The translations under genes and the position numbers were made by a program. From IMG/VR virus record IMGVR_UViG_3300046694_000619: a stretch of DNA of 64,000 nucleotides, one strand, 5' to 3'. The stretch comes from a virus (taxonomy: Duplodnaviria; Caudoviricetes). The notes below the pieces were generated by a model. The model was not told the DNA's origin, did not search any database, and was given only the letters and a program-made list of their open reading frames with translations. Of this stretch, positions 7,997-47,635 are shown piece after piece (position 1 is the first letter of the stretch; each line of letters starts with the position of its first letter).

Positions 7997-8476
7997 GTGA
8001 AAATCCTACCCATATTCTTGATTGCTGCAGCATTTAATTGCCACGTCGCATTCGGCGCCGTTTCCAACACGACGAAAACTCATTGCACCAAAGATGAGAC
8101 GACGCTGTTCAGTTGTCGGATTGGCCAGAAGATAGTTAGCGTTTGTGCGGTGGGCAAACAACTGCGCCCTCAATACCGTTTTGGAAAGCTTGGGCATCCG
8201 CTCGAGCTACAGTATCCGGTGGACATTGCTAGTTCGGAACGCATTTCTATCGAGGAGCAGACTGATTCATTCCCTCGAGCGCATTATTCCGAGTGGTCGA
8301 TTGAATTCGCAAACGGTGGCTTCAGCTACACAGTCCAGGCTTTAGAATCAAGAGCGGCTGCTGATTTAGGTTCTTCTTATATTGAGATTTCCAGCAGGCC
8401 AGGCCAACTGGAGTGTGCGAGAGGTAGTGAGATGGTCAATGAGGCTGCATTGCATCAACTCGCGAAGCCTTTTTGA
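7997..8476 (+). CDS. Secreted Cys-containing protein
   Basis: Signal peptide; C....TLFSC....KIVSVC...YRFG pattern; lower GC. Confidence 0.6.
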   Translation: MKILPIFLIAAAFNCHVAFGAVSNTTKTHCTKDETTLFSCRIGQKIVSVCAVGKQLRPQYRFGKLGHPLELQYPVDIASSERISIEEQTDSFPRAHYSEWSIEFANGGFSYTVQALESRAAADLGSSYIEISSRPGQLECARGSEMVNEAALHQLAKPF

Positions 8477-8501
8477 CTAATCGACGCGACCTCATCGCCG
8501 G

Positions 8502-8882
8502 TCACGCGGTCACGATTTCGTGACCTTGGCAGAGCGCTTCCTTGCCGTCCTCATACACGTACACGTACCACTCCGGCCAGTCGGGCGCGGTGACAACCTT
8601 GAGCCCCGGGCCAAGGTCTTCGCCGGCTTCCGCGCGCGCAATGAGGCTAGGCAGCGTGCGCATCTTTGCGCTGAACAGCGTCAGAAAGTGGAGCACGCCG
8701 TCCCGCTCGACCGCCCAGTCAAAGGAGTCGAGCAGCGTGCGTCCAGGCACGGCCATTCCGTCGAACTCGGAAGCGGGCAGGCCTTCTGCATCAAAAAGCT
8801 CAGGATTTGATTCCCAAAGCGCCTCGAGCACCGGGCGGTGCAGACGAAACGCATAGCTCGACGCGTTTATCAGAACTTTCAT
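8502..8882 (-). CDS. Phage-type hypothetical protein (last gene of the PurA-like cluster)
   Basis: MKVLIN...LKVV..PD...W.V..YEDGKE pattern; AAGGA RBS. Confidence 0.65.
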   Translation of the reverse strand: MKVLINASSYAFRLHRPVLEALWESNPELFDAEGLPASEFDGMAVPGRTLLDSFDWAVERDGVLHFLTLFSAKMRTLPSLIARAEAGEDLGPGLKVVTAPDWPEWYVYVYEDGKEALCQGHEIVTA

Positions 8883-8899
8883 TGAACTTCCTTTCTTGT

Positions 8900-10150
8900 T
8901 CAGGCCGCGACGGCAACAGGCCTCACCGACGATTTGCGACAAGGCACAATCGTGTCGCGTGTTGGTCCCCACGAGCAAAACGCAACGGGCAACACCCGGT
9001 GGCTGGCCATGAAGACCAGTTCGTCCGGCGAGACTACGTGCGTTTCGGCATCCAGTCGCACGCGCGCCGCCGCGCCAACCTGGTCCAGACATGTCACAGC
9101 CGTCTGTGCGGTGATGTCGATGCGCGCGCCGAACGCTTCGGCTAGGTCAGACCCGATGGCAACTGCAAGCTGGTCCAGGTCCAGGTCGGCGAAGCGCAGG
9201 GACCCTTGGTACTCGTTCGGTTGATTCGTGAGGTCGACAACGCCTTCATAGGGCCGACCAGGCAACTCGTTTGCCAGCGGCCCGGCACCATGCCGCGTTA
9301 GGTACGCGCGGGTCACGTAGGTGACATCCAAGGCCTCGATGCCGGCTTCGCTTGCTACGTCGAGAACGTTGCGAAGCCCCGTGTTCGACCGGGTCACATA
9401 GGGGAATGCACCCTGATGCTGGTCGAGCAGCAGCCCCTGCGCGCCTTCGAACACGACATTGTCCGAGAGCAGGATAGGCGCCGCGGCACCCGACAACAAC
9501 GTGACATCACCCAGGAATTCCTGCGCGGCCTCGATAAAGGCGTCCACCAGCACGTCCGTTGTGCACAGCTTATGATGCTTGCCAAAATCCGGCAGCCCCA
9601 GTTCCTTGATGCGGACGGGCAGGTGGAAATCGCGAATCTCGATGAGTTTTGCGCGCAACGCGTCAACGTCTTGCAGGTCACCAGCCGTCAGCGCAAACGT
9701 GCCGGCTTCCATGCGCCCGATGGTCTCGCCAAAACCCATGCCGCAGCTGCCGTGTCGCTTCGCACCGCGAAAATCCTCGACGAGCTGGTTCACCAGCATG
9801 TCGAAGAAGGTGGTCACTGGCGCGCGCTCGTCCACGTAGAGCGTCGTAAGCTTGCCGAGGAGAGGCAGGAGTTTCGCGCGCTCCTTGAGATAAAGCATGG
9901 GATTGACCGCAAAGTGCCGCGACAGGTACGTCTTCGCGCCCGCGAACGTGCCGGCGCCGAAATGGCTGAAAGCATGTCGCGTGCCGTCCGGCGTGGTGAC
10001 GGTGTGACTCGCCTGGCAGCCACCGTTGAAACGCACGACGAGGCTGTTATCGCTCTGTGACGCGAAGTAATCGGTCATGAGACCCTTTCCTTCATCCCCG
10101 TAGTTCGCGCCGATGACCACTTTTGCCGAGCGCTTGCGAAGCTGTGTCAT
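8900..10150 (-). CDS. Divergent adenylosuccinate synthetase (PurA)-like protein
   Basis: GANYGDEGKG P-loop, RFNGGCQASHT, FEGAQGLLLD, PYVTRSNTG, YLTRHGAGP; the aspartate loop GATTGR is absent. Confidence 0.9.
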   Translation of the reverse strand: MTQLRKRSAKVVIGANYGDEGKGLMTDYFASQSDNSLVVRFNGGCQASHTVTTPDGTRHAFSHFGAGTFAGAKTYLSRHFAVNPMLYLKERAKLLPLLGKLTTLYVDERAPVTTFFDMLVNQLVEDFRGAKRHGSCGMGFGETIGRMEAGTFALTAGDLQDVDALRAKLIEIRDFHLPVRIKELGLPDFGKHHKLCTTDVLVDAFIEAAQEFLGDVTLLSGAAAPILLSDNVVFEGAQGLLLDQHQGAFPYVTRSNTGLRNVLDVASEAGIEALDVTYVTRAYLTRHGAGPLANELPGRPYEGVVDLTNQPNEYQGSLRFADLDLDQLAVAIGSDLAEAFGARIDITAQTAVTCLDQVGAAARVRLDAETHVVSPDELVFMASHRVLPVAFCSWGPTRDTIVPCRKSSVRPVAVAA

Positions 10151-10163
10151 GCTGGGTCTCCAG

Positions 10164-10454
10164 TTACAGAATTTCGCAGCCGTATTTCTGGCGGAACTGG
10201 ATAGCCAGCTCCTGAAATTCGGGCATATTGCCCATATTGGTTTTCACTTCAGCGAGTAACCCGGGCCGACCGTACGGAAGGTCGGCGTGCAACTCGAAGC
10301 AGAATCCTTCTGCCGGTGTTGGGTATTCGCTGTAAAGCTCGGCTGAAATGCCCTTGTCCAGCGCACCTCGCACCTGGCGAATTATGTTGGCCGCCCACGG
10401 CTTCCACTCTTCGGCGTCGCGTGGCCCAGCTCCCACCTTGTCATTCGTGTCCAT
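10164..10454 (-). CDS. Hypothetical protein
   Basis: GGAG RBS before ATG 10454 (MDTNDK); lies within the operon. Confidence 0.55.
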   Translation of the reverse strand: MDTNDKVGAGPRDAEEWKPWAANIIRQVRGALDKGISAELYSEYPTPAEGFCFELHADLPYGRPGLLAEVKTNMGNMPEFQELAIQFRQKYGCEIL

Positions 10455-10483
10455 CACTCGCTCCACTTCGAATTTTGGTGCGC

Positions 10484-10954
10484 TTAATCTGCGTAAGCGA
10501 TGATTCCGACTTCCCAAAATGCCTCGACGCCGAAATCCTTCTTCAACATGTCGACGAATTCACCGTATTCGCGCTGGGCCTTTTCGAGCATCGCCGTGCC
10601 GTCAAGGGAAGAAAAGAGCACCGGCTTGAACCCGTCTTCCGTGTCCTGCTCGAGCGTGAGGCCGTGCTCGTTGTGGTTCGGCAGCCAGATGTCGCCCTTC
10701 GGATGATTCTTTCCATATTCCGGGCAGTGCATGAAGTCCTCCCACGGGCCGGTGAGCTTGTGGATGGGAAACGGCTTCACCACTTCCGTGGGCACGTCCC
10801 GCTCAAGCACGGTACCGCCGCAGTTTCCGCAAAACTTCGCGGGCTTGCTGACCGCCGGCGCGTTGCAGTTGTTCGAGCAGCTGCGCTCAGACTTGGTCCC
10901 CTTCACGGGTGAAGGGGGAATGACCAGGTATGGGCCGATGAAAAACGACGTCAT
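10484..10954 (-). CDS. Zinc-ribbon protein
   Basis: CSNNC...KFCGNCG; AGGA RBS. Confidence 0.7.
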   Translation of the reverse strand: MTSFFIGPYLVIPPSPVKGTKSERSCSNNCNAPAVSKPAKFCGNCGGTVLERDVPTEVVKPFPIHKLTGPWEDFMHCPEYGKNHPKGDIWLPNHNEHGLTLEQDTEDGFKPVLFSSLDGTAMLEKAQREYGEFVDMLKKDFGVEAFWEVGIIAYAD

Positions 10955-10968
10955 AAAAATCCTGTTGA

Positions 10969-13242
10969 TTAAGCGAGGTAGTCAGCGATGAGCACTTCTG
11001 CGTCGTAGGCCGTGACCACTTTCTGGTCAGCCTTCACCGGCACGATGGCGGTCGGCAGCTTGCTTGTGAAAACGATGTCCGCTTCCAGCGCGGTGGCCAC
11101 CCGCTCGCCACGCGCGTTGACGTGGTCAGCGAGCAGGGCGCCTAGCGTCGGTCGAACCGGATTGACGATGCCGCGCGCCATCTGCGTCGTCAGGATGGTC
11201 GCCGTCTCCACAGCATTGAAGCCGCTGCAGCGTGCCGGCAGCACCAGGTCCGCCCATACGAACTGACGTCGCGCGATGTCCACATAGCCAACCAGGATGC
11301 GCTCGCCTGCCGCCGTCAGGTCGACCTTCTGGCGCACGGTGCGTGCGTCATAGATGGCGCCGCTCTGTTCGTCGACGCGCGACATCCAGCCCAGATACGC
11401 TTCGGGCATATCGCCGAAGTTCTGCTTGGTGTACGAAAATGCGACCAGCGCGATGTACGCGGCGTCAACAGGGAGTTTGCGGAAGTCGATGTCGATGAAC
11501 TCGCACGCGCCCTCCGGCGCCGACGTAATGTCGCCGCTGTGCGTCATGCCTTCCGCGCGCAACTGCGTGAAGCTGCAGTGCGTCACATAGTTGAAGCTTT
11601 CGTCGAGCACCGAGCAGGACAGGTCCAGGTCGGTACGGCCGATGGAGTAGGGCTCGCCACTCTTATCGAGGCCTTGCTCATTCCACCACAGGAACGCGCG
11701 CATGATGGAATCGGGGCCCAGGTCGATACGCGAGCCGCGACCTACCGTCAGCAGCGACTTCTGCGCGGTACGCTGCGCAAACGGAACGCTGATGCCGTCC
11801 AGTGCAGGGTCGATATACACCTTGCCCATCGCCGGCAGCTTGGCGAAGCGCGCCGCCAGCACGTCGGACACCGTTTTGACGACGAATTCGTTGGCGCTCT
11901 CGGTCAGCCGCGGCGAACCGTTCTGCGGCACCCACATGCGGGCAGCGCCGCCCTTCGGCGAGAACGCGCGCACACCATCCTGGTCCACCGCCATGCGGTG
12001 ACGCAGTTGCACGAGGACCGGCGTCGAGACCTTGTCGGCCACAGTTGCGAAGGCCTTGAGCACCGCTTCCTTGTTCGCGCCCGTCGCCTTGCGTACGGTT
12101 TCATGCAGCTTGCGAGCGAACACACCCGGACGCTGCACGAGAAGGTCGATGGCAGCCAGGGTGTTGCGCGATGCAAGGCGCGATTCCACCGTACCGGCCC
12201 AGCTCACGGGCATGTCGTTCTTGCGCAGCGCCGTGAAGTGCTCGTAGGCACGCTTGAAGCGGGCTTGATACTCGCCCGGATGCAGCGCTTCCCCCAGGCG
12301 TACCCATTGCTCGCGTCGCTGGAACATCTCCGAGCGCACCGACTCAGCGCTGAGGCTGTCGAGGAGGCCCAGCAACAGGCGGCGCAGGCCACGAGAGACC
12401 TTGCCAAAGCGCGGCGGCTTGGACAGCGTCAGGTCTGCATCCTTGAGGTTGGCCGCGCCGACAGCGGCGGCCAGGCGCAGCACGTCGGTTGGTGTCTGGA
12501 AGAAGCGCGCGAACTCAGCGGCTTCGAACGTCGCCGGCGTGTGCGTCAGCAGCCAGCCGCCGACCAGCGCGCGGTGTTCTTTTTGCGGGATGGTTGCCTG
12601 TTCCTTGAGCATTTCGAGCAGGCGGCCAGGATAGACTTCGCTGAAATACGAGAGCAGCTCGAGCGTCACTTCCTTGTTGGCCACCGACATCGAGGCATTG
12701 CCGTTGATAAGGCGCAGCAACTGGTCATAGACGGCCGTGCGCGGTGCAAGCGCCAGGGTGGTCGGCTTCATGTGCTCGAGCATCTTGAGCGCCGGTCGCT
12801 TTGACGCCGTGTACCGAGGCAGCACACGCACCCCCATCCAGTCGCCACGATAGTGCGCCCAGGCGTTAGAGAGCAATTCCGCGTCGGAAGCTTCGAGCAC
12901 CTGTTCCGGAAAATCCGGGTACATCGGGGAATACACGCGATGCGCGCCCAGAGCGTGGCTCAGGATGTGTACGAGGTTGGTGTGGACGTGAACGAGGTCG
13001 ACTTCGGGCATCCACGACAGCGTCAGGATAGCGTCCTGGCCGTAGACGAAGCCGAGATACTCGAGAGTCAGCTCGCTGTGAAGAGCGCGGTCCATGCTGG
13101 GACCGGGATTGCCGAGTGCGCTTTCGCGCTGCGAAGCAGCGTCAACGGCGGGCAGTGCCAGCTTGCCGTTGCGAACGAGAGCCGCGAGAATGTTGAATTC
13201 ACGGGTGTTAACTCGAAATCCTGCGTCAGCGAGCGTGAGCAT
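10969..13242 (-). CDS. Large helical-domain protein with C-terminal TerD-like domain (757 aa)
   Basis: YSPMYPDFPEQV, RREQWVRLGEALHPGEY, RPGVFARKL; TerD motifs DLDLS, HSGDITSAPEGACEFIDID, FVWAD. Start set at ATG 13242 after GAGGA. Confidence 0.85.
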   Translation of the reverse strand: MLTLADAGFRVNTREFNILAALVRNGKLALPAVDAASQRESALGNPGPSMDRALHSELTLEYLGFVYGQDAILTLSWMPEVDLVHVHTNLVHILSHALGAHRVYSPMYPDFPEQVLEASDAELLSNAWAHYRGDWMGVRVLPRYTASKRPALKMLEHMKPTTLALAPRTAVYDQLLRLINGNASMSVANKEVTLELLSYFSEVYPGRLLEMLKEQATIPQKEHRALVGGWLLTHTPATFEAAEFARFFQTPTDVLRLAAAVGAANLKDADLTLSKPPRFGKVSRGLRRLLLGLLDSLSAESVRSEMFQRREQWVRLGEALHPGEYQARFKRAYEHFTALRKNDMPVSWAGTVESRLASRNTLAAIDLLVQRPGVFARKLHETVRKATGANKEAVLKAFATVADKVSTPVLVQLRHRMAVDQDGVRAFSPKGGAARMWVPQNGSPRLTESANEFVVKTVSDVLAARFAKLPAMGKVYIDPALDGISVPFAQRTAQKSLLTVGRGSRIDLGPDSIMRAFLWWNEQGLDKSGEPYSIGRTDLDLSCSVLDESFNYVTHCSFTQLRAEGMTHSGDITSAPEGACEFIDIDFRKLPVDAAYIALVAFSYTKQNFGDMPEAYLGWMSRVDEQSGAIYDARTVRQKVDLTAAGERILVGYVDIARRQFVWADLVLPARCSGFNAVETATILTTQMARGIVNPVRPTLGALLADHVNARGERVATALEADIVFTSKLPTAIVPVKADQKVVTAYDAEVLIADYLA

Positions 13243-13271
13243 GTATGTCCTCGGATAGCGTATAAATAACG

Positions 13272-13445
13272 AACAGGCTACCCGCAGGAAAGCAATACGG
13301 GATGCCGTCTGGCATCCCGTATCACCACTTCTGGAGCAGGAGAGCAGCGCCGCTAGTTTCCAATGTGAGTTGAGTAGAAGGAAGCCGCGCAATAGCCTGC
13401 AAAACCTGTCAGCTGCCGAATACTTTCGTTCAACAACCGACTTGA
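13272..13445 (-). ncRNA. Candidate structured RNA or leader upstream of the TerD-domain gene
   Basis: Own sigma70 promoter; 5' hairpin; CAGGCTA/TAGCCTG closing stem; perfect 12-bp internal hairpin at 13295-13322. Confidence 0.6.
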
Positions 13446-13451
13446 GAGCAC

Positions 13452-13480
13452 AGTATATACCGATAACGCGCTCGCGTCAA
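13452..13480 (-). promoter_or_regulatory. Sigma70 promoter
   Basis: TTGACG-N17-TATACT on the minus strand. Confidence 0.75.
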
Positions 13481-13498
13481 CCGCGATTTTAGTATATC

Positions 13499-14404
13499 TC
13501 AGAATCGCGTCAATGCCGTTCCTGCGGCGCGTCCCGGCTGCAGCGCATTCAGTCCGCGTGCGACGACCATCGACGTGCTGCCCGACCACGACTTCACCGT
13601 GGCGTCGACACTGGTGCCTTCGATAACCTGAATGGTCGACACGATGAGCTCAGCCATCTTCGTGTGGTCCGACAGCGGCAGTGCGCGCTCGCCGAGCAGT
13701 GCCTTCCAGTTCGCCTTGACTGACGAATCGCACGAGTTGCTTTCTTCGACGAGCAGATGGAAGACGTGATAGCTGCGGCTGGCCATGGTCAGCAGCTCTT
13801 CCGAAGTCAGGTCGCGCTCGATGTCGTCACCAAACACACGCTGGACCTGCGCGCGAGTGAGCACGTTGTGCGGATTCTCGTCGCCGACCGTGAAAAGATA
13901 GCCCTTCTTCTTGCGCTTTTCGAAACAGTCGATGGACGTATGACGCGCGGCGAAGTACCACGGCAGGTGGTAGCTCTCGCCGCCGTTGCCCCCGCCATGG
14001 CCTTCCAGCCAGATTTGCGACAGCTGCGTAGCGATGCGGATGTCGGCCTCGAACTGCGTCACCTGCAGCGGCGCCTTGTCCGAGTACGCGTCACCTACAC
14101 CCATGCACGCGATATGCGGGTCGGCGACCGGCTTGCGCGCAATCAGTTCTTCGACGAGGACGCCCATACCCGTTCTCACCAGGACGTCCGCGAGTTTGCC
14201 CATTGAACCCGTTACGTCGCCAGCGACGATGATGGCAGTCGAATTCGGATTGGCCGCTGAGTCGCGCGATTCACGCATCGCGACACCGTGCGGATTGAGG
14301 TCCGGGTGCATGTGGTTTTGGCTGAACACCTGTGCGGTCGACTTCGTGCTTGTGCTCGACGAGAACGAATCCCAGTCGGTGGAACTCCAGTTGCTTGAAC
14401 CCAT
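13499..14404 (-). CDS. vWA-domain protein
   Basis: MIDAS DVTGSM, MGVGDA..D.APLQV.QFE, EGHGGGNGGESY, FTVGDE; AGGAG RBS. Confidence 0.85.
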   Translation of the reverse strand: MGSSNWSSTDWDSFSSSTSTKSTAQVFSQNHMHPDLNPHGVAMRESRDSAANPNSTAIIVAGDVTGSMGKLADVLVRTGMGVLVEELIARKPVADPHIACMGVGDAYSDKAPLQVTQFEADIRIATQLSQIWLEGHGGGNGGESYHLPWYFAARHTSIDCFEKRKKKGYLFTVGDENPHNVLTRAQVQRVFGDDIERDLTSEELLTMASRSYHVFHLLVEESNSCDSSVKANWKALLGERALPLSDHTKMAELIVSTIQVIEGTSVDATVKSWSGSTSMVVARGLNALQPGRAAGTALTRF

Positions 14405-14452
14405 GATTTACTCCTGTGCGTTGTGCGGTTAGTGCGTTGTTTTGCTGTTTGT

Positions 14453-14878
14453 TTAAGCTTCCGTCTTCCGGGATGTATCGCCAGCGAGCCGGCGCAGCGA
14501 CTGCTCGAAGTGACAGAGCCACTTGAATTTGTCGGACACCCACGAAAAGCTTTGGTTGGCGTCGCTCTGCGCCCGGTTAATCCATGACCCGTACTCAGTC
14601 GTGCCGGGTTGCGGCAACTGCAGCGGGATGTGCTGTGCGGCGCTCCAGCACCCGCGCATTGAATACGCAGAGAACGAGGCGCGCTCGTATCGCTTGCCGT
14701 ATTCGCCCGTCATGTAGGCGTCGAAGTCGGCGGCGGCCGGTTCATCCTTCGGCGCCAACGCCGTGTTCACGATGCGCGAGATGCGGTCACGCAGCTGCTG
14801 TGTGTCGCGGTACTGAACCGCCGTGTCGCGCAACTCGTTCACGAGCGCGGTGATTTCGTGGTCTTTGAGGTCTTTCAC
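14453..14878 (-). CDS. Hypothetical protein
   Basis: GTG start overlapping the upstream stop (GTGA); AAGGA RBS. Confidence 0.6.
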   Translation of the reverse strand: MKDLKDHEITALVNELRDTAVQYRDTQQLRDRISRIVNTALAPKDEPAAADFDAYMTGEYGKRYERASFSAYSMRGCWSAAQHIPLQLPQPGTTEYGSWINRAQSDANQSFSWVSDKFKWLCHFEQSLRRLAGDTSRKTEA

Positions 14879-15945
14879 AGCGCAATTCCTTGTCGCGGGT
14901 CGTACAGCCTGTCATGGGACAGGTCCATCGGGACGAACTTGCGCGGGCCGAACGCCTCGATGAGAACGCGCGACTGCCAGTCCTTGTAAGTGGCCACCGC
15001 GCTCTGATGCGTGCTCAGCTGAAGCCAGTCGACCAGGGCGGCCGGAACAGACGCGTCCTTGGCCAGCCGAACACCGGTTGAGTCGCCGAGCAGCTCACGC
15101 CCGAGCGCCTGAATCATTTCCATGTCCGTGCGGGTGTCGCCGACCTTCTTCTGGAGCACGGCTGGCGGCGCGCACAGCATCATTCGTTGCGAGGCCGCCT
15201 TCATCGGAGCGCCCAGCGGCGTGGCAAACCACCAGCCACCAAAGAGGTGAGCGGTGTGCTCCTCCGGCGAAATGAAGACCGTGTCCGGGCCGATAGCGTT
15301 GTGCGAGACCTTGCCTTGAATCTCGAGGTAGCAGGCGATGTTCAGCAAGCGGCTGAGGACCCACGCGACATGCGCGGCAGGCATCTTTCCCTTGTAGAAC
15401 TCGAGCACGTCCTGAAGGAGCATCTCCTTGGCCGTTTTCTTGAGGACCAGCATGGCGCCGGTCGCCGTTTCGACCTTCTTCACCACTTCCGGGAAGTAGC
15501 GCGAGAACTCCTTGCGCATCGGGTCGTTGGCGTAGGACAGGCGCGCGATGCTGCGTTGCGCGTCGTCGAGCAGGTCCAGGTTGTCGGTGGAGATGTCGAA
15601 CGCCACTACGGTGCGGCCGACGTACATCGTTCCAACCTCGAGCGCCACCTTGCGTGAGAAGCGCAGCTCAAACTGCGTTCCGTCCGTGCCGCGGATGGCG
15701 AGCAGTCCCGGTGTCTCCCACGTGCCTTCGGCGGCCTTGCGCTTGGCCGCTTTGTTCAGCTTCTTGAGCCGGTCGAACACGTCCCATCCGCGTGGACCGG
15801 AGCCGTGGTCAGGATGCCACCTCATGAAAAGCTTGCGAGCTTCCTTCTCCGCCGCCGCCGCGCTCGAAAACAGACGCTCGGGCGCATCTTCAGGGATGGC
15901 CAGGATTTCGTCAGCAGTGAGGGCGGTTTGGTCGGCTTCGGTCAT
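14875..15945 (-). CDS. J-domain-like + kinase-fold (pseudokinase) protein
   Basis: N-terminal RWHPDH (HPD); HVAWVLSRLLNIACYL...SHNAIGPDTVFI...LFGGWWF aligns with the kinase catalytic and DFG regions but lacks the Asp residues. Confidence 0.7.
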   Translation of the reverse strand: MTEADQTALTADEILAIPEDAPERLFSSAAAAEKEARKLFMRWHPDHGSGPRGWDVFDRLKKLNKAAKRKAAEGTWETPGLLAIRGTDGTQFELRFSRKVALEVGTMYVGRTVVAFDISTDNLDLLDDAQRSIARLSYANDPMRKEFSRYFPEVVKKVETATGAMLVLKKTAKEMLLQDVLEFYKGKMPAAHVAWVLSRLLNIACYLEIQGKVSHNAIGPDTVFISPEEHTAHLFGGWWFATPLGAPMKAASQRMMLCAPPAVLQKKVGDTRTDMEMIQALGRELLGDSTGVRLAKDASVPAALVDWLQLSTHQSAVATYKDWQSRVLIEAFGPRKFVPMDLSHDRLYDPRQGIAL

Positions 15946-16105
15946 GTCCAGTTAGTTCTTAGTTGCGATTTACGAATAAGTATAGGTGAGCCATTGGGTG
16001 GAATGCAAGACCTTTCGTTCCTCCGGAATACCGGATGTCAAATCGAGCGCATGGTTGGCCAAATACGTAAATAACAGTATACTATATAACGATGGAGAGA
16101 AGCGA

Positions 16106-16606
16106 ATGTTTGAACCAATGGCGGCCGCGACTCGCGCGATTCAGTTGGCGCGCGCCGGCACACCCCTATATTTCGAAGATGGACCAGTCGGAGACATCGA
16201 ACGCGATGCGCTCGCCGAAGGTCTGCCGCTTTGGCTCGAGGCCAAGGCAGGGCATCTGTATCTCGCTGCAAATGCTTCGTGGCCCGGCCTGTTCAAACTC
16301 GGATGCACCCGTCGGAGCATTGCGTCACGCATGCGTAGCTTGAGCGGCGCCGGAGTTCCGACACCATGGGTGGCGGCACATACCTGGACTGTGCACGACG
16401 CCCATGGGCTGGAAGCGCTGGTGCATCGGGAGTGCGAGCAGTGGCGCGTCGAAAAGGAACTGTTTCATGCGCCGGTGACAACTCTAATTGCGACTGTTGA
16501 TTCAGTTGTCGCTCGAGAACGCGAAGCCCTCACAAAAGAGCTGTCGTTATACCTTCCTCAGAAATTCATGGGGAGCCTGCAGCCGCTTACGGATGAGCAA
16601 ATATAG
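16106..16606 (+). CDS. GIY-YIG / T5orf172-type nuclease-domain protein
   Basis: LYLAAN..PGLFKLGCT...R.R.L...GVPTP...LEALVH......RV.KELF. Confidence 0.75.
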   Translation: MFEPMAAATRAIQLARAGTPLYFEDGPVGDIERDALAEGLPLWLEAKAGHLYLAANASWPGLFKLGCTRRSIASRMRSLSGAGVPTPWVAAHTWTVHDAHGLEALVHRECEQWRVEKELFHAPVTTLIATVDSVVAREREALTKELSLYLPQKFMGSLQPLTDEQI

Positions 16607-18049: not shown

Positions 18050-19813
18050 ATGAACAATTTAAATTCGACCAACATGCACGCACTCACGCTTCAGGCGCAC
18101 TTTGATTACAGTTACGTGCCGCGCACGGGAGACAACGCTGAAGGCGCCGATGTCACGGTGGCCTTCGCGACGGACTTCAACACGGCCGGCGAAAAGCTCA
18201 CGAAGCGTAAAGCAGGACCTCGCTATATCGGTATTCCCTTCGGGATTGATGTTTCCGAGGCGGCGGCGCGGCTTGTGGCGTTCATTGTCGGACGCAATGG
18301 CAGCACGCTGAACGTGGCGGGCAACGGCATCTACACGCTCACGGAGCACGGTGTCAATCAGGAGCGGGCCAATGCGTGGGTGCACAGCGTTCTCGCGGCG
18401 GTATCGCGAGGCGTGAAGCTCACGCTCGTTCGCTCAGGCGGGCAGACGGGCATCGACCAGGCTGGCCTGGTGGCGGCCCTCGCGCTTGGCATTCCTGCAC
18501 TGGGCTACTACCCGGCGCGCTTTCGTCGACGCAACGCGCAAGGCACGGAAGTGACGGCTACAGCCGCCGCGATTCGTGCCGAGCTCGAGGTGCAGGCTGA
18601 CGCGCTGAAGAAGAGCAAAGGCTGGGACTTTCACCAGGACGGGTCGCTGCCGACCGAACTCGAGAAGCAGGTCTTCGTGTTCGGCTCTAACCTGGCCGGA
18701 CGTCACGGCAAGGGTGCTGCGGCTGTCGCCAAGGAGCAGTTTGGCGCGCAGCCGGGTGTTGGTCCGGGGCGTCAGGGTCAAAGCTACGGCATCCCCACAA
18801 AGGATGGTCGGCCGCTGCCGGGAATGGAGCGTCCATCGTTCAACGACCCGAAGCAGACCCTCTCCCTGGCTGCCATCAAGCCCTTCGTCGACGATTTCAT
18901 CGAGTATGCGAAAGCACATCCCGATGAGCAGTTCTTCGTCACGCGTGTCGGTTGCGGTCTGGCCGGCTACGAAGACAAGGAGGTCGCGCCGATGTTCGCC
19001 GCGGCACCTTCGAACTGCAGCTTTCCGGAAGACTGGAAGCCGTGGCTCTCGGAGGCTCAGGACGCGCCGAAGGTCGCGCAAGCCATCAACATCTGGAGCG
19101 GTGCTTCGGGGTTGGGCGGCGCGCTGACCAACATGTCGGAGCGGGCGCGGGAGAAGGGCGGCATCAAGCACTCGTATCCCGTGAAGGTCAATGGTGTGAC
19201 TTACCCTGATTCCGAGGCGGCCTATCAGGCGCTGAAGGCTCCGGGTGAGGACGATTACAACGACGGCCTGATGATTGACCTCATCGCGCTGAAGTTCGTC
19301 CAGAACACCAAGCTGTATGACCTCGTGACGAAAAACGGTGGTGTGGCATGGCTGGAAAAATGCAGTCATTTCACGCAGGCTAAATCGGAGCGGTTCCAGG
19401 CCTGGGAAGGTCAGGGACACGGGTCCCGGTTCATCCGGAACCTGATTCACGGCTACGTGAAGGCAAAGACCGGCCGCGGTCCCGTTACCCGGGTCGTGCA
19501 TGTGAAGGAGGCTCCGTTTGACGTCTATATTGGGCGCCAGATGGGTTCGGACTACCCGCACTCCCCGTGGCATAACCCGCACAAGGTCGACAGCTCTCGC
19601 TCGCGCAATACGGCCGTCGCAGACTTCGCCGAAGACTTTTCGGGCAACCAGGAGTTACAGGCTGACGTGTACCTGCTTAAGGGCAAAACCCTGGGCTGCT
19701 GGTGCAAGGACCGCTCTGATGTCAACCGGCTATGTCACGGCGATGTGCTTGCCGCGCGCGCAGACGGGCGAGAATGGGTCGCTCCGCAAGAAGCTCAAGG
19801 CTGTCTGTTCTGA
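18050..19813 (+). CDS. Multidomain protein: SLOG(YpsA/MoCo-carrier-like) + macro-like (A1S_2505-type) + NADAR-like + DUF4326
   Basis: LNVAGN and SGGQTGIDQAGL; VFVFGSNLAGRHGKGAA...YGIPTK...FFVTRVGCGLAG; LTN...YPDSEAAYQ; DVYIGR...SPWHNP...LKGKTLGCWC...CHGDVL. Confidence 0.8.
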   Translation: MNNLNSTNMHALTLQAHFDYSYVPRTGDNAEGADVTVAFATDFNTAGEKLTKRKAGPRYIGIPFGIDVSEAAARLVAFIVGRNGSTLNVAGNGIYTLTEHGVNQERANAWVHSVLAAVSRGVKLTLVRSGGQTGIDQAGLVAALALGIPALGYYPARFRRRNAQGTEVTATAAAIRAELEVQADALKKSKGWDFHQDGSLPTELEKQVFVFGSNLAGRHGKGAAAVAKEQFGAQPGVGPGRQGQSYGIPTKDGRPLPGMERPSFNDPKQTLSLAAIKPFVDDFIEYAKAHPDEQFFVTRVGCGLAGYEDKEVAPMFAAAPSNCSFPEDWKPWLSEAQDAPKVAQAINIWSGASGLGGALTNMSERAREKGGIKHSYPVKVNGVTYPDSEAAYQALKAPGEDDYNDGLMIDLIALKFVQNTKLYDLVTKNGGVAWLEKCSHFTQAKSERFQAWEGQGHGSRFIRNLIHGYVKAKTGRGPVTRVVHVKEAPFDVYIGRQMGSDYPHSPWHNPHKVDSSRSRNTAVADFAEDFSGNQELQADVYLLKGKTLGCWCKDRSDVNRLCHGDVLAARADGREWVAPQEAQGCLF

Positions 19814-29918: not shown

Positions 29919-30314
29919 ATGAGCACCAACACCATTTTTCAAAAACTCGGTCTTGTTGTCGTGAGCGAGGACAAGGGCGTCTACCAACTGCGGCCGCTCG
30001 AGGAACATGGCGACCGGAAAAGCGATTTGGTGGGACTGCTGTTCTCCGCAACCCCGCTCGACAAGCAGCCGGCCCATATTCAGCTGTTCCTGCAGGAAAG
30101 CTCGGCTGAAGTGCCGGCCGCGCGCATCGTCTACCACTGGCAAACGCTGGACGCCCGGCGCTTCGCCGAATCTGGACTCGAGCCGCGTGAACTGGAGGTA
30201 TCGGCGGACCGCATTCCCGAACGCGCCAACGTGAAGAATTTCACTCGCCCCGACGGCGTGCGCATGCGCCACGCGGTGACGCTGACCACAGGAGAGGTTG
30301 TTTGCTACAACTGA
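29919..30314 (+). CDS. Hypothetical protein
   Basis: AGGAG RBS; coupled to the next gene. Confidence 0.65.
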   Translation: MSTNTIFQKLGLVVVSEDKGVYQLRPLEEHGDRKSDLVGLLFSATPLDKQPAHIQLFLQESSAEVPAARIVYHWQTLDARRFAESGLEPRELEVSADRIPERANVKNFTRPDGVRMRHAVTLTTGEVVCYN

Positions 30315-31213
30315 TTTCGAAGCTCGCGCCTCCCTGGAGCGGCGCCGTCACCGCCGCGCTCGTCGGCGATGCTTTTGGTGTTCCTCACGAATTCAAGCAG
30401 CCCAAAGCCATTCCGCCCGCGCATGAGTTGGCGATGGTGATGCCTGCGGCCTATCCGAAGACTTACGCCAGCGTGCCGTACGGCATCTGGTCGGACGATG
30501 GCAGCCAAACGATGGCTCTGCTCGACGCGTTGCTCGCGAGGAACGGGCTTTACAGCGCTGACCTGTTCGGCCGCAACATGCTGGCCTGGCTACACGAGGC
30601 AAAGTATCAGCCCGGCGGCCGGGTCTTCGATTGCGGGAACCAGACGCTTGATGCGCTGACGCAGCTCGAGCGCGGTCTTCCGGTCGAATTCGACGAGTCG
30701 CGGTGCGGCAATGGCAGCCTGATGCGCGTGCTGCCTGTCGCAGCGCTGCCAGATTCGCTTGGCATCAATCCGGTTGATGCCCTCCGTTTCGCAATGGAGC
30801 AGTCTGCGCTGACGCACCCGCAGGCGCTCGCGCGCGTGAGCTGCGCGTTGTACGTCCAACTCGCCTGGCTCGCGCAGCCCGGCAGCCGGGGACTCCGCGC
30901 GCGAATGCCGGAAGCTGCGAGAGCACTCAAGGAATCGGGCGTGCTGACGGCGCGCGACCAGACCGCGCTGTCCACCATCCTTGCGTTCGGCGAGCAGCAG
31001 CCAACGAACTCGGGCTACGTCGTGGATAGCCTTTGGTCTGCGATTGATGCGGTCGACCACGCCAGCAGCCTGAGCGACGCGCTTTGTCGGGCGGTGAGTC
31101 TGGGTTCGGACACGGACACCGTCGCGTGCATCGCCGCTGGCCTGGCTGCCCTGGTGTTCGGATGGGATGAGACGGCGCACGGATGGCGCCGCCAGATGAC
31201 GATGCTGACGTAG
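30302..31213 (+). CDS. ADP-ribosylglycohydrolase (DraG/ARH family, Tri1-like)
   Basis: GDAFGVPHEF, VPYGIWSDDG, VFDCG.QT, GNGSLMR, QSALTH, DTDTVACIA. Confidence 0.9.
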   Translation: MLQLISKLAPPWSGAVTAALVGDAFGVPHEFKQPKAIPPAHELAMVMPAAYPKTYASVPYGIWSDDGSQTMALLDALLARNGLYSADLFGRNMLAWLHEAKYQPGGRVFDCGNQTLDALTQLERGLPVEFDESRCGNGSLMRVLPVAALPDSLGINPVDALRFAMEQSALTHPQALARVSCALYVQLAWLAQPGSRGLRARMPEAARALKESGVLTARDQTALSTILAFGEQQPTNSGYVVDSLWSAIDAVDHASSLSDALCRAVSLGSDTDTVACIAAGLAALVFGWDETAHGWRRQMTMLT

Positions 31214-34860: not shown

Positions 34861-34864
34861 CGTG

Positions 34865-34899
34865 GAAACCCAGGCCTCGCGGTCTGGGTTTTTCTTTTT
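34865..34899 (+). terminator. tmRNA terminator
   Basis: GAAACCCAGGCC-TCGC-GGTCTGGGTTTT followed by a T-run. Confidence 0.75.
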
Positions 34900-34939
34900 G
34901 AGCTATACCATGTGTCCTAGCCCCGTTGCCCAAAAGACC

Positions 34940-47400: not shown

Positions 47401-47620
47401 ACGCGCCGATGATGAGTGGCAGCTTCTCTTCTTTGGCCTGAACATGTGCGCGCACCACGCCGGCGAGCGAACACTCGTCGGTGATGGCGAGGCCCGCATA
47501 TCCGAGTTGCGCCGCGCGCGCGACCAGCTCCTCCCCGCGTGACGCGCCGTGAAGGAACGTGAAATTCGAGAACGCGAACAGCTCCGCGTATTCGGGCAGG
47601 ACGGAGAACGGCGTATCCAT
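44471..47620 (-). CDS. dnaE2: Error-prone DNA polymerase DnaE2
   Basis: YAELFAFSNFTFL.GAS, GRGSAANS, PPDIDVDFEH, FPRHLSQHSGG, YGFPESHA, C-terminal SRDFH. Confidence 0.97.
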   Translation of the reverse strand: MDTPFSVLPEYAELFAFSNFTFLHGASRGEELVARAAQLGYAGLAITDECSLAGVVRAHVQAKEEKLPLIIGAYFELVHADKRPAFGLILLAQNREGYGNLSEFITLGRMRAEKGSYLLTPQDIARPEPDYAHLRGMPDCLAILVPDFPAKEAALAAQLEWMNETFPTRAYVGLTLHQRAMDDIHRGIVEHIADRYRVPVVATGKVVMHVRSRKPLQDTMTAIRVGRPIAECGYDLAPNAEQHLRSRLRLANLYPEHTLSETLSILERCTFSLDELRYEYPDELVPPGITHEDYLRQETYIGAHRRFPNGIPHAVQEQIEHELKIIRQLNFEPYFLTVYDIVRFARSEHILCQGRGSAANSAVCYCLGVTEVDPSRSSMLFERFLSPERNEPPDIDVDFEHQKREIVIQYIYEKYGRNRAAIAAAVHTYRPRGALRETGKALGIDPQIVDRVAKNHQWFDSSHDLLNRFAESGLDPENPLIAAWASLAGQILNFPRHLSQHSGGFVISRGKLTRLVPIENAAMTGRSAIQWDKDDLEALGLLKVDILALGMLSAIRRTLDIVSEERGERFEMQDIPVEDKATYDMISRADTVGVFQIESRAQMSMLPRLKPKTFYDLVIEVALVRPGPIQGGAVHPYLRRRQGIEPVSYPSADLETALGRTLGVPIFQEQVMQVAILAAGFSPGEADQLRRAMAAWKRKGGLEKYYDRIVNGMLARGYERSFADGIFEQIKGFGEYGFPESHAASFALLVYASSWLKRHEPAAFLAAMLNSQPMGFYSPSQLVQDAKRHGVRVAPVDVTISAWDSVLEHPDGQPRPVVRLGLSLLRGMRDGASERIENARAVRQFSSVSDLARRAQLDRHDLQVLAAANALASLAGNRREALWQSAAAIPDKDILAGAGVDDATPELGAPSEVDDIVSDYQSTGLTLGRHPLALLRPALREHRLMPASTLARYPNNRLARGCGLVVGRQRPGTANGVMFVTLEDETGNVNVIVWQSVLERHRKEALGASLLAVYGTWQSEGGVRHLIAQRLVDMSHLLGDLSTHSRDFH

Positions 47621-47635
47621 GGCGACTGCCTGACC

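What the first reader, a model, noticed from the sequence alone, without database searches (positions are those of the whole stretch)
8502..15945. Candidate undescribed system: J-pseudokinase, vWA, structured RNA, helical/TerD protein, Zn ribbon and PurA paralogue
Seen: eight co-oriented minus-strand genes with short gaps, one internal promoter and one RNA-like segment. The first protein has an HPD J-motif fused to a kinase fold in which HRD becomes HNA and DFG becomes FGG. The vWA protein has an intact MIDAS (DVTGS). Known: J domains recruit Hsp70, and vWA and TerD domains act as metal-dependent scaffolds in Ter stress and anti-phage systems. Inference: this is a chaperone-assisted protein or ribonucleoprotein complex coupled to a GTP-dependent nucleotide-amine ligase, plausibly a conflict or stress system rather than purine biosynthesis. 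I know of no experimental function for this combination.
Basis: partly seen in the sequence, partly recalled or inferred. Interest (0 to 1): 0.85.

Follow-up and report, generated by a model that had tools for sequence, protein, structure and literature searches.

The report
NAD-linked PurA-like, vWA, J-pseudokinase cassette
The flagged genes are real, but only three of them (a DnaJ-like inactive kinase, a metal-site vWA protein and a re-tooled relative of the purine enzyme PurA) form a gene cassette that recurs in many bacterial phyla and hundreds of large phages, often beside the ADP-ribose sensor NrtR, and I found no paper that describes it.

Summary
In detail: co-oriented minus-strand genes at 8502-15945, an HPD J-domain fused to a dead kinase fold, a vWA protein with DVTGS, a PurA paralogue, a TerD-like protein, a Zn-ribbon protein, an internal promoter and a structured RNA.

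The eight genes are not one system.
- **Core.** The conserved unit is J-pseudokinase, vWA, PurA-like. It was adjacent in 80 genome loci from at least six phyla. It also occurs in about 200 Bixzunavirus mycobacteriophages. Vibrio and Rhizobium phages carry vWA plus PurA-like only.
- **Regulator.** A catalytically dead Nudix-wHTH regulator (NrtR type, an ADP-ribose sensor) is adjacent in 50 of the 80 loci.
- **Enzyme.** The PurA-like protein keeps its GTP and 6-oxopurine catalytic residues but has lost every aspartate determinant. Five genomes tested also carry a normal purA.
- **Insert.** The TerD-like 757-aa gene, the Zn-ribbon gene and a small gene are a Burkholderiaceae-specific insert. It has its own promoter and a roughly 200-nt covarying leader that hides the ribosome-binding site. 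This leader is the "structured RNA".

The function is untested. My best reading is an ADP-ribose/NAD-stress module built on a non-aspartate nucleotide-amine ligase. This scan had already noted the same cassette on other DNA (CPR bacteria and others), and I re-derived it independently. I found no paper that describes it.

The parts
14875..15945 (-). J-domain (HPD) fused to a pseudokinase; first gene of the conserved cassette
   Evidence: AlphaFold2 pLDDT 93 with a J-PKA chimera and kinases as best matches. HPD is nearly invariant. HNA stands for HRD and FGG for DFG, and there is no VAIK lysine. A homologue lies directly upstream of vWA in 72 of 87 loci.
15950..16000 (-). Likely promoter of the cassette (TTGCAT-18-TATACT) and a conserved short 5' UTR
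   Evidence: Read directly. The block CTTGC[AG]...CTATACTTAGTCGTAAATCGCAA is conserved in four Burkholderiaceae relatives. No NrtR-type palindrome is evident.
14453..14878 (-). 141-aa protein, lineage-specific; its N-terminal 40 aa match a motif common in phage proteins
   Evidence: phrog_20174 and others, E 2e-12. Kept in L089 and partly in L007, absent in L090 and in all distant loci.
13499..14404 (-). vWA protein with MIDAS D63-V-T65-G-S67, a family-specific N-terminal extension starting Met-Gly, and no Pfam family
   Evidence: There are 823 clusters at 50% identity with E<=1e-30.
13452..13480 (-). Internal sigma-70-type promoter, TTGACG-17-TATACT
   Evidence: It is kept in relatives, including L090, where a recombinase gene separates it from vWA.
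13243..13446 (-). Structured 5' leader of the 757-aa gene: four helices, the last pairing with the Shine-Dalgarno sequence
   Evidence: 53 predicted pairs, 10 with compensatory changes among five sequences. No Rfam match. The covariance model found only one marginal hit (E 2.5e-4, not inspected) in 151 Burkholderiales genomes.
10969..13242 (-). 757-aa RING-less relative of the MXAN_6230/SCO0854 family with a TerD-like domain; part of the lineage-specific insert
   Evidence: NF041916 scores 365 bits against a cut-off of 600, matching residues 396-770 of the 807-aa ORF. TerD scores 19 bits. ESM Atlas TM 0.84 to SCO0854 RING proteins. It stands alone in other large phages.
10484..10954 (-). 156-aa protein with a C-x3-C-x12-C-x2-C Zn-ribbon motif; part of the insert
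10164..10517 (-). Small protein (96-117 aa, start uncertain); part of the insert
   Evidence: Homologues only in L007 and L090. No family match.
8900..10150 (-). PurA-family enzyme with intact GTP and 6-oxopurine catalytic residues but a remodelled aspartate pocket; last gene of the conserved cassette
   Evidence: It lies directly downstream of vWA in 79 of the 80 genome-contig loci, and a PurA-like match is present in 83 of all 87 loci held.
8502..8882 (-). Doubtful 126-aa ORF downstream of the PurA-like gene
   Evidence: No family match and no homologue in four close relatives.

Best explanation
The region holds a widespread, undescribed three-gene cassette: J-domain pseudokinase, then vWA/MIDAS protein, then PurA-like enzyme.

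**Shown**
- The three genes travel together across phyla and in large phages.
- In most bacterial loci they sit next to an NrtR-type Nudix-wHTH regulator.
- The enzyme is an extra copy alongside a normal purA.
- It keeps the residues for GTP binding and for phosphorylating O6 of a purine nucleotide, and it has replaced all known aspartate determinants with a different, conserved motif.

**Inferred mechanism**
- When NAD+ is broken down, ADP-ribose would release NrtR and switch the cassette on.
- The enzyme would use GTP to activate a 6-oxopurine nucleotide, either IMP-like or a hypoxanthine form of an NAD/ADP-ribose-derived nucleotide.
- It would then join that nucleotide to an amine other than aspartate, perhaps ammonia or another small amine. 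This would restore or modify adenine-type nucleotides.
- The vWA protein would be its obligate metal-site partner.
- The J-pseudokinase would be an optional subunit that brings in DnaK.

**In this window**
The cassette lies in a strain-variable, phage-like region of a Paraburkholderia-like rhizosphere bacterium. It has been split by a separately transcribed insert: a leader RNA, a TerD-like 757-aa protein, a Zn-ribbon protein and a small protein.
For: **Co-occurrence.** 80 of 80 loci found with the vWA profile carry the cassette. The PurA-like gene is adjacent in 79 of them (a match in 83 of all 87 loci held) and the kin-like gene is present in 72 of the 87. The taxa span Gamma-, Beta- and Alphaproteobacteria, Acidobacteriota, Cyanobacteria/Melainabacteria, Desulfobacterota and Bacillota.

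**Phages.** vWA matched 218 phage records and PurA-like 238, with almost the same host breakdown. The genes are adjacent in the Vibrio and Rhizobium phages. The full trio is in Bixzunavirus, genes 259-261.

**NrtR.** It is adjacent in 50 of 80 loci, and directly upstream of vWA where the kinase gene is missing. Its Nudix box lacks the catalytic glutamates. The palindrome TGTTATT-N4-AATAACA occurs 32 times in the upstream regions of 20 loci, against 5 times elsewhere.

**Enzyme.** The equivalents of E. coli D13, K16, H41, Q224, T239 and D333 and the GPxR motif are kept. N38, T129, R131, R143, V273, T300/T301 and R303 are changed, and in the aspartate loop region they are replaced by a conserved D-x-TN-x-PN-xx-QG-x-LRF motif. 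A canonical purA scoring about 600 bits coexists in 5 of 5 genomes tested.

**Context.** Flanking genes are varied and mostly metabolic. The phage copies and this window lie among NAD/ADP-ribose genes.
Against: - No biochemical or expression data exist, and the substrate and the nucleophile are guesses.
- No NrtR gene was found in this window (tblastn), and no NrtR-type palindrome was evident upstream of the kin gene. The only box-like site there has 4 mismatches. An NrtR gene is said to lie just outside the window, but only by an unchecked note.
- The operator motif was shown for one clade only (Competibacteraceae).
- A metabolic enzyme has no obvious need for a vWA partner or a J-domain pseudokinase.
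- The Vibrio and Rhizobium phage copies lack the pseudokinase.
- High identity across phyla (50-60% for vWA) fits horizontal spread, which is also typical of conflict systems.
Confidence: 0.45

Rival explanations
1. Counter-defence or defence module. In phages and mobile elements the enzyme would rebuild adenine nucleotides or NAD-related molecules destroyed by host immunity (NADases, adenine-nucleotide deaminases), or would make a modified nucleotide that acts as a signal or toxin. The bacterial copies would be domesticated or mobile versions.
For: - The cassette is present in about 200 Bixzunavirus genomes and in Vibrio and Rhizobium large phages.
- All core proteins match PHROG families.
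- The phage and window copies sit near NADAR, NMNAT/Nudix, phosphoribosyltransferase, DUF4326/SLOG and ADP-ribosylglycohydrolase genes.
- The distribution across phyla is sporadic but with high identity. Burkholderia/Paraburkholderia strains carry a copy at about 80% identity, yet none appeared among the 80 best representative-genome loci, whose top identity was 59%. This suggests the gene is strain-variable there.
- Inteins interrupt some homologues.
Against: - No PADLOC model matches any cassette protein.
- Chromosomal neighbours are mostly housekeeping, with few defence matches.
- Control by a housekeeping-type NAD regulator fits homeostasis as well as conflict.
- No effector-like domain is present.
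Confidence: 0.3
2. Protein-directed ligase. The PurA-like enzyme would attach a purine nucleotide through C6 to a protein amine, most simply the N-terminal glycine of its vWA partner. DnaK, recruited by the J-pseudokinase, would remodel the complex.
For: - The aspartate side-chain determinants are lost, but a new conserved loop takes their place.
- The vWA protein starts exactly Met-Gly in 131 of 150 diverse representatives and in all three phage groups. Profile position 1 aligns to residue 1.
- The enzyme and the vWA protein are essentially never apart.
Against: - This is purely an inference and no such chemistry is known.
- A few family members begin MA, MS, MF or MH.
- I could not model the complex.
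Confidence: 0.08
3. Ter-like metal or tellurite stress complex. The vWA, TerD-like and kinase-like proteins would form a metal-dependent scaffold with the PurA-like enzyme attached.
For: A TerD-like domain, a vWA protein and a kinase-like protein lie in one gene string in this window.
Against: - The TerD-like gene is missing from all 80 cassette loci outside this lineage.
- It has its own promoter and leader.
- It occurs in other phages without the cassette.
- No TerB, TerC, TelA or PP2C match was found among the gene-string proteins and flanking ORFs scanned.
- TerD scores below the Pfam cut-off.
Confidence: 0.05
4. An ordinary second adenylosuccinate synthetase for purine salvage that happens to lie beside unrelated genes.
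For: There is a clear PF00709 match, and the catalytic P-loop, His and Gln are intact.
Against: - It scores far below every PurA equivalog cut-off: 124 against 402 bits.
- All tested aspartate determinants are changed.
- A canonical purA is present as well in 5 of 5 genomes tested.
- It is linked to vWA across phyla and in phages.
Confidence: 0.05

Closest known systems
Adenylosuccinate synthetase PurA (EC 6.3.4.4, PF00709) and the phage paralogue PurZ
   Same: - Same fold.
- GDEGKG P-loop with the catalytic Asp, plus the catalytic His and Gln.
- Guanine-recognition Asp (TCxDQ in place of TKLD) and the C-terminal GPxR motif.
The first half-reaction, phosphorylation of a purine O6, is therefore probably kept.
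   Different: - The residues that bind aspartate in E. coli PurA (V273, T300, T301, R303) and several IMP-phosphate ligands (N38, T129, R143) are replaced by other conserved residues.
- It scores far below the PurA and PurZ NCBIfam cut-offs.
- It always comes with a vWA gene, and it coexists with a normal purA.
NrtR regulon of NAD homeostasis (Nudix-related ADP-ribose-sensing repressor; Rodionov 2008 and Huang 2009, as cited in PMC9503650)
   Same: An NrtR-type gene (PF21906 plus a Nudix domain without catalytic glutamates) is adjacent in 50 of 80 loci. Paired palindromes lie in the shared upstream region.
   Different: Known NrtR targets are NAD synthesis and salvage genes. No paper in the library mentions both NrtR and adenylosuccinate. 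This window has no adjacent NrtR gene.
ARG-centred, NrtR- or WYL-controlled systems with vWA 'chaperones', predicted by Iyer et al. 2022 (PMC9503650, section 3.8)
   Same: The logic is the same: an ADP-ribose-sensing repressor, a vWA peptide-binding protein and a nucleotide-processing enzyme, with variable add-ons.
   Different: The enzyme here is PurA-like, not an ADP-ribosylglycohydrolase. There is no phosphatase partner. That paper does not mention adenylosuccinate synthetase or J-domains.
Phage NAD+ reconstitution pathways NARP1, NARP2 and NARP3
   Same: All are carried by large phages and mobile elements and are linked to NAD+/ADP-ribose turnover. A NARP1-like pair is reported just outside this window by an unchecked note.
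   Different: No enzymes are shared. NARP3 is PnuC plus NadR. No NAD-forming step can be assigned to a PurA-fold enzyme.
MXAN_6230/SCO0854 RING-domain family and TerD proteins (relevant to the inserted 757-aa gene)
   Same: Same overall architecture, with TM 0.84 over about 705 residues and a TerD-like domain.
   Different: It lacks the RING domain, scores below the family cut-off, and sits behind a private structured leader.

Membership tests
Adenylosuccinate synthetase PurA (EC 6.3.4.4) | PF00709 fold with a GDEGKG P-loop and the catalytic Asp13, His41 and Gln224 | tested here: met
   PF00709, E 6e-42. D19, K22, H49 and Q238 align to D13, K16, H41 and Q224 and are invariant in 39 family members.
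Adenylosuccinate synthetase PurA (EC 6.3.4.4) | Aspartate determinants V273, T300, T301 and R303. Their roles are recalled from E. coli mutagenesis work (Gorrell et al. 2002), which I did not re-read here. | tested here: not met
   V273 aligns to an invariant His (H287). The pairwise alignment to E. coli PurA stops before the GATTGRPR loop. By my own motif register on the family alignment, D-x-TN-x-PN-xx-QG-x-LRF stands in its place, with T301 becoming Q315 and R303 variable.
Adenylosuccinate synthetase PurA (EC 6.3.4.4) | Score over the curated equivalog cut-off | tested here: not met
   NF002223 scores 124 bits against 402, and TIGR00184 scores 111 against 396.
Adenylosuccinate synthetase PurA (EC 6.3.4.4) | It is the genome's purA | tested here: not met
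   Five of five genomes with the cassette also hold a full-length purA of about 600 bits. The window's own genome is not held.
PurZ (succino-amino-deoxyadenylate synthase) | Score over the NF038379 cut-off | tested here: not met
   50 bits against a cut-off of 300. PDB PurZ 7odx matches only at E 1.5e-4 over 60 residues.
PurZ (succino-amino-deoxyadenylate synthase) | Linked dATP/dGTP-clearing partners (DatZ, MazZ) | not tested
   None was seen among the annotated neighbours, but I ran no dedicated search.
vWA domain with MIDAS | vWA fold | tested here: met
   Z 16.4, rmsd 2.8 over 191 residues to the integrin beta I-domain. NorD and Ku80 vWA domains also match.
vWA domain with MIDAS | D-x-S/T-x-S motif plus downstream Thr and Asp ligands | tested here: met
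   D63 and S67 are invariant and T65 is invariant or nearly so. D175 is invariant after beta4. Assigning the Thr ligand to T116 is an inference.
J-domain (DnaJ, PF00226) | HPD motif within a J-domain helical hairpin | tested here: met
   WHPD is conserved. PF00226 is matched by homologues (E 2e-8 and 3e-6), though not by the window's own protein. The best fold match is a DnaJ-PKA chimera.
Active protein kinase | Beta3 Lys, HRD Asp and DFG Asp | tested here: not met
   H-N-A replaces HRD, F-G-G replaces DFG, and there is no conserved beta3 Lys in 44 sequences. The Bixzunavirus homologue keeps the Lys, the Asn and an I-D-W motif but has H-G-A.
TerD family (PF02342) | Score over the gathering cut-off | tested here: inconclusive
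   19.2 bits against 25.3. ESM Atlas neighbours include TerD-bearing clusters.
MXAN_6230/SCO0854 RING-domain family (NF041916) | Score over the cut-off, and a RING domain | tested here: not met
   365 bits against 600. Only model positions 387-762 of 842 are matched, with no RING match. The fold is shared at TM 0.84.
Ter stress-response system | TerB, TerC, TelA or the TerY-PP2C-kinase triad in the cluster | tested here: not met
   No such Pfam match in the 8 ORFs of the gene string or in 12 flanking ORFs scanned.
NrtR regulon | An adjacent NrtR gene or an NrtR operator upstream | tested here: inconclusive
   Met for the cassette family: 50 of 80 loci, with operators in 20 loci. In this window, tblastn found no NrtR gene and no clear box lies upstream of kin.
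Known anti-phage defence systems (PADLOC-DB 2.0) | Any model match to a cassette protein | tested here: not met
   Zero matches for all eight proteins. Only the divergent T5orf172 neighbour matches PDC-S57.
Y RNA / Ro RNP or any Rfam family (for the RNA segment) | A match to an Rfam covariance model | tested here: not met
   No match at E<=1 over 8000-16500. No match to PF05731 or any other Pfam family in the gene-string proteins.

The most novel reading that the evidence does not exclude
The PurA-like enzyme is a nucleotide-protein ligase. It would phosphorylate O6 of a purine nucleotide with GTP and then let a protein amine attack C6. The amine proposed is the nearly invariant free N-terminal glycine of its vWA partner. 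This would create a previously unknown N6-linked nucleotide-protein conjugate, switched on by ADP-ribose and remodelled by DnaK through the J-pseudokinase.
Probability: 0.08. Interest if true: 0.92.

Novelty: new variant of a known kind. Interest (0 to 1): 0.72.

Why it matters
- **A new enzyme specificity.** A PurA-fold enzyme that keeps its purine-activating chemistry but has swapped its amine pocket would be a third specificity in this family, after PurA and PurZ. PurZ led to the discovery of a new DNA base.
- **A missing NAD-stress player.** The cassette is conserved from Acidobacteriota to Bacillota and in hundreds of large phages, and it sits beside the ADP-ribose sensor NrtR. It is therefore a candidate missing part of how cells and phages cope with NAD+ breakdown, which is currently a central theme in phage-host conflict.
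- **Directly testable.** The proteins are small and soluble-looking, and the host of the mycobacteriophage copies (M. smegmatis) is genetically tractable.
- **A second lead.** The private structured leader in front of the inserted TerD-like gene is a separate candidate cis-regulatory RNA.

Tried and rejected
- **DNA similarity.** DNA-level searches of the region against the phage (blastn) and plasmid (megablast) collections gave no match.
- **Whole genome.** It is not held for this window. The genomes of L007 and L090 are not held either.
- **Family scans.** PADLOC gave no match for any cluster protein. Rfam gave no match over 8000-16500.
- **PDB sequence search.** Searching with the vWA profile gave only chance kinesin hits.
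- **Fusions.** A search for fused forms of the PurA-like protein found only intein-containing versions and no informative domain fusion. Apparent kinase-vWA fusions in my crude ORF calls (L076, L077, L082) are open upstream frames in GC-rich DNA, not fusions; I checked the frames from the coordinates.
- **Phage upstream proteins.** The proteins upstream of vWA in the Vibrio and Rhizobium phages are not related to the pseudokinase (hhalign probability under 1%).
- **Neighbours of L005.** Tpt1, the metallophosphatase and the others are unique to that locus.
- **Leader RNA.** The covariance model found nothing else in the window. It found one marginal hit, which I did not inspect, in 151 Burkholderiales genomes.
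- **NrtR box in the window.** The Competibacteraceae box matches the window's kin promoter only with 4 mismatches, which I treat as chance.
- **ESM Atlas.** The look-ups added only 'adenylosuccinate synthetase family' and 'TerD family' cluster names.
- **Literature.** Eight searches found no paper on the cassette. NARP3 is unrelated, being PnuC plus NadR.
- **Sequencing runs.** No RNA holder is listed. All holders are rhizosphere metagenome DNA runs, so I did not use read laying.
- **Not possible here.** I could not model the protein complex or the PurA-like structure, because both structure-prediction jobs went to the vWA and kinase-like proteins.

Full report
**What is in the window.** The minus strand between 8502 and 15945 carries a tight string of ORFs. 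Reading upstream to downstream they are:
- a 356-aa protein, 14875-15945;
- a 141-aa protein whose GTG start overlaps the previous stop;
- a 301-aa protein, 13499-14404;
- a 256-nt gap;
- a large ORF;
- a 156-aa and a roughly 100-aa protein;
- a 416-aa PurA-family protein, 8900-10150;
- a doubtful last ORF.

The large ORF was listed from a TTG at 13392. The relatives are 752-761 aa, and an ATG at 13242 is preceded by GAGGA, so the gene is 10969-13242 and encodes 757 aa. The window comes from a rhizosphere metagenome. Its DnaE2 is 87% identical to one on a Paraburkholderia plasmid. No whole genome is held for it.

**The three core proteins.**
- *J-pseudokinase.* The first protein folds with pLDDT 93 into a J-domain plus a protein-kinase fold. 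Its best PDB match is the DNAJB1-PKA chimera, followed by Aurora and PAK kinases. Across 44 homologues the HPD is kept, but HRD reads H-N-A, DFG reads F-G-G-W-W, and no beta3 lysine is conserved.
- *vWA protein.* The 301-aa protein matches no Pfam family but folds with pLDDT 90 into a vWA domain. It matches the integrin beta I-domain at Z 16.4, rmsd 2.8 over 191 residues. D63-x-T65-x-S67 and D175 are invariant.
- *PurA-like enzyme.* The 416-aa protein matches PF00709 (E 6e-42), but only over the first two thirds of the model. It falls far below every PurA and PurZ curated cut-off.

**The real unit is three genes.** A profile of the vWA protein retrieved 80 loci from one-genome-per-species contigs. 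They come from Competibacteraceae, Massilia, Roseomonas, Dyella, Acetobacter, Acidobacteriota, Cyanobacteria/Melainabacteria, Geobacter relatives, Clostridia and other Bacillota.
- A PurA-like gene lies directly downstream of vWA in 79 of these 80 loci. Across all 87 loci held at that point (which also include four phage loci and three contig loci), 83 have a PurA-like match and 72 have the kin-like gene.
- None of the 80 has the TerD-like, Zn-ribbon or small genes of this window.
- The same order, kinase-like (with HPD), then vWA, then PurA-like, is in Bixzunavirus mycobacteriophages, genes 259-261 of TinyTim.
- Vibrio (phiKT1024 group) and Rhizobium (RHph_TM group) large phages carry vWA next to PurA-like, without the pseudokinase.
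- The phage records matched by vWA (218) and by PurA-like (238) have almost the same host breakdown.
- An exhaustive profile search counts 823 clusters at 50% identity with E<=1e-30, so the family is sizeable but not universal.

**Link to NrtR.** The only other recurrent neighbour is a Nudix plus winged-helix protein (PF21906 NrtR_WHD, E down to 5e-27).
- It is adjacent in 50 of the 80 loci, either divergent or co-directional. Where the pseudokinase gene is absent it sits directly upstream of vWA.
- Its Nudix box lacks the catalytic glutamates, as in sensor-only NrtR.
- In 20 loci, all of one gammaproteobacterial clade, the shared upstream region holds one or two TGTTATT-N4-AATAACA palindromes. 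There are 32 boxes in these short regions against 5 in all the remaining sequence.
- NrtR is known to release DNA on binding ADP-ribose, as cited in PMC9503650.
- In this window tblastn found no NrtR gene, and I saw no such box upstream of the kin gene. An unchecked scan note places an NrtR gene with Prs-like and Nampt-like genes about 3 kb before the window's start.

**What the enzyme can and cannot do.** I aligned the protein to E. coli PurA and compared it with 38 family members, phage copies included.
- *Kept:* the P-loop with the catalytic Asp (D13), K16, H41, Q224, L228 and T239; the guanine-binding Asp (TCxDQ for TKLD); and the C-terminal GPxR. GTP-driven phosphorylation of a purine O6 is therefore probably retained (inference).
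- *Changed, but conserved within the family:* N38 to Q, T129 to C, V273 to H. A new Arg follows T239.
- *Lost:* R131 and R143.
- *Aspartate loop:* the pairwise alignment to E. coli stops before the GATTGRPR loop. By my own register on the family alignment, the conserved motif D-x-TN-x-PN-xx-QG-x-LRF stands in its place, with T301 becoming Q315 and R303 variable.
- From E. coli mutagenesis work that I recall but did not re-read, V273, T300, T301 and R303 are the aspartate determinants. All are gone.
- Five of five genomes that carry the cassette also have a full-length purA of about 600 bits.
- Longer relatives are intein-containing versions only.

I conclude that this is a ligase of the PurA type with a different, still unknown, second substrate.

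**Context.** In bacteria the 66 genes flanking the cassette in 38 diverse loci share no family. They are mostly transporters and oxidoreductases, and only a handful match defence models. That speaks against a defence-island location.
- In phages and in this window the neighbours are often NAD/ADP-ribose enzymes. These include NADAR and TROVE in the Vibrio phage; a phosphoribosyltransferase and NMNAT/Nudix in the Rhizobium phage; a polynucleotide kinase in Bixzunavirus; and a DUF4326/SLOG protein and an ADP-ribosylglycohydrolase here.
- Iyer et al. 2022 predicted ARG-centred systems with NrtR or WYL regulators and vWA 'chaperones'. The logic resembles this cassette, but that paper names neither a PurA-like enzyme nor a J-domain.
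- Eight full-text searches found no paper on this gene set.

**The lineage-specific insert and its RNA.** Close relatives are B. ubonensis (L007), Paraburkholderia sp. (L090) and two metagenome contigs (L089, L091). They keep the kin-like and vWA genes and, where the contig extends far enough (L007, L090, L091), the PurA-like gene, with a variable block between vWA and PurA-like.
- The block always contains the 757-aa gene where the contig reaches it. The Zn-ribbon and small genes are usually present. L091 has an extra 399-aa gene, and in L090 a serine recombinase lies between vWA and the block.
- The block starts with TTGACG-17-TATACT (13480-13452) and a roughly 200-nt leader that is more conserved than the coding sequence around it.
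- RNAalifold predicts four helices with 53 pairs, 10 of which show compensatory changes among only five sequences. The last helix pairs TCCTGCGGG with the CCGAGGA ribosome-binding site.
- The leader matches no Rfam family. A covariance model built from it found only one marginal hit, which I did not inspect, in 151 sampled Burkholderiales genomes.
- The 'structured RNA' is therefore a private translational leader of the 757-aa gene, possibly a riboswitch or a protein-binding element. It is not a partner RNA of the cassette.
- The 757-aa protein is a RING-less relative of the MXAN_6230/SCO0854 family with a TerD-like domain. Its homologues stand alone in other large phages (XacN1, Weasels2, RcXuper and others) that do not carry the cassette.

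**An unexplained detail.** The vWA protein begins exactly Met-Gly in all bacterial and phage sequences aligned and in 131 of 150 diverse representatives. Most of the exceptions are fragments or mis-called starts. A fixed free N-terminus next to a ligase that has lost its amino-acid side-chain pocket is the basis of the speculative protein-ligase reading.

**Verdict.** It is wrong in treating all eight genes and the RNA as one Ter-like complex.
- My best reading, at about 45%, is an ADP-ribose/NAD-stress-responsive module. In it a GTP-dependent PurA-fold enzyme would join a 6-oxopurine nucleotide to a non-aspartate amine, with vWA as an obligate partner and the J-pseudokinase as an optional DnaK-recruiting subunit.
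- A counter-defence or defence role in phages and mobile elements is the main rival, at about 30%.
- The same cassette has already been noted by this scan on other DNA, including CPR bacteria and actinomycetes. I reached the NrtR and phage links independently before reading those notes.

Noticed in passing
window 13243-13446 (-): A candidate new cis-regulatory RNA. It is a roughly 200-nt leader with four covarying helices whose last helix masks the Shine-Dalgarno sequence of the 757-aa TerD-like gene. It has no Rfam match and was seen only in this Burkholderiaceae element lineage.
   Followed up: partly
vWA protein, window 13499-14404 (-), and its homologues: The family starts exactly Met-Gly in 131 of 150 diverse representatives and in all three phage groups. 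Residues 1-52 form a family-specific extension ahead of the vWA fold.
   Followed up: partly
window 15986-16606 (+), probable start near 16106: A T5orf172/MUG113 protein matching the PADLOC candidate PDC-S57 (E 2e-14) lies divergent from the cassette. It keeps this position in L007, L089 and L091.
   Followed up: partly
L090:8298-9695 (-): In a Paraburkholderia relative a serine recombinase gene sits between the vWA gene and the leader plus 757-aa block. This may show how the block entered the cassette.
   Followed up: no
homologues P0122-P0128; Bixzunavirus hits H29-H37: Some PurA-like homologues carry inteins with LAGLIDADG or Hom_end domains. In several mycobacteriophages the vWA gene matches in two pieces, and one of these is annotated as an HNH endonuclease.
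   Followed up: no
window 13452-13480, about 15979-16003, and 16055-16083: Three promoters in this stretch share the same -10 hexamer, TATACT. One serves the cassette, one the insert and one the T5orf172 gene. This suggests an element-specific promoter style.
   Followed up: no
window 18050-19813 (+) and 30302-31213 (+): A 587-aa protein with circularly permuted YpsA-SLOG and DUF4326 domains, and an ADP-ribosylglycohydrolase. These are further NAD/ADP-ribose-processing genes in the same region.
   Followed up: partly
window 34862-36955, 59430-61169, 61197-63197 (+): Three large proteins with repeated He_PIG Ig-like domains, one ending in a phage gp38 tail-fibre-adhesin-like domain. They hint at a phage-like or contractile-device element.
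   Followed up: no
window 44471-49099 (-) and 52619-54544 (+): A DnaE2 plus ImuB-like mutagenesis cassette and a LigD ligase/primase-polymerase. DnaE2 is 80-87% identical to copies on Paraburkholderia and Caballeronia plasmids.
   Followed up: no
L005:12542-13117 (+): In one distant locus an RNA 2'-phosphotransferase (Tpt1/KptA, an NAD-consuming enzyme) directly follows the PurA-like gene. The neighbour is unique to that locus.
   Followed up: partly
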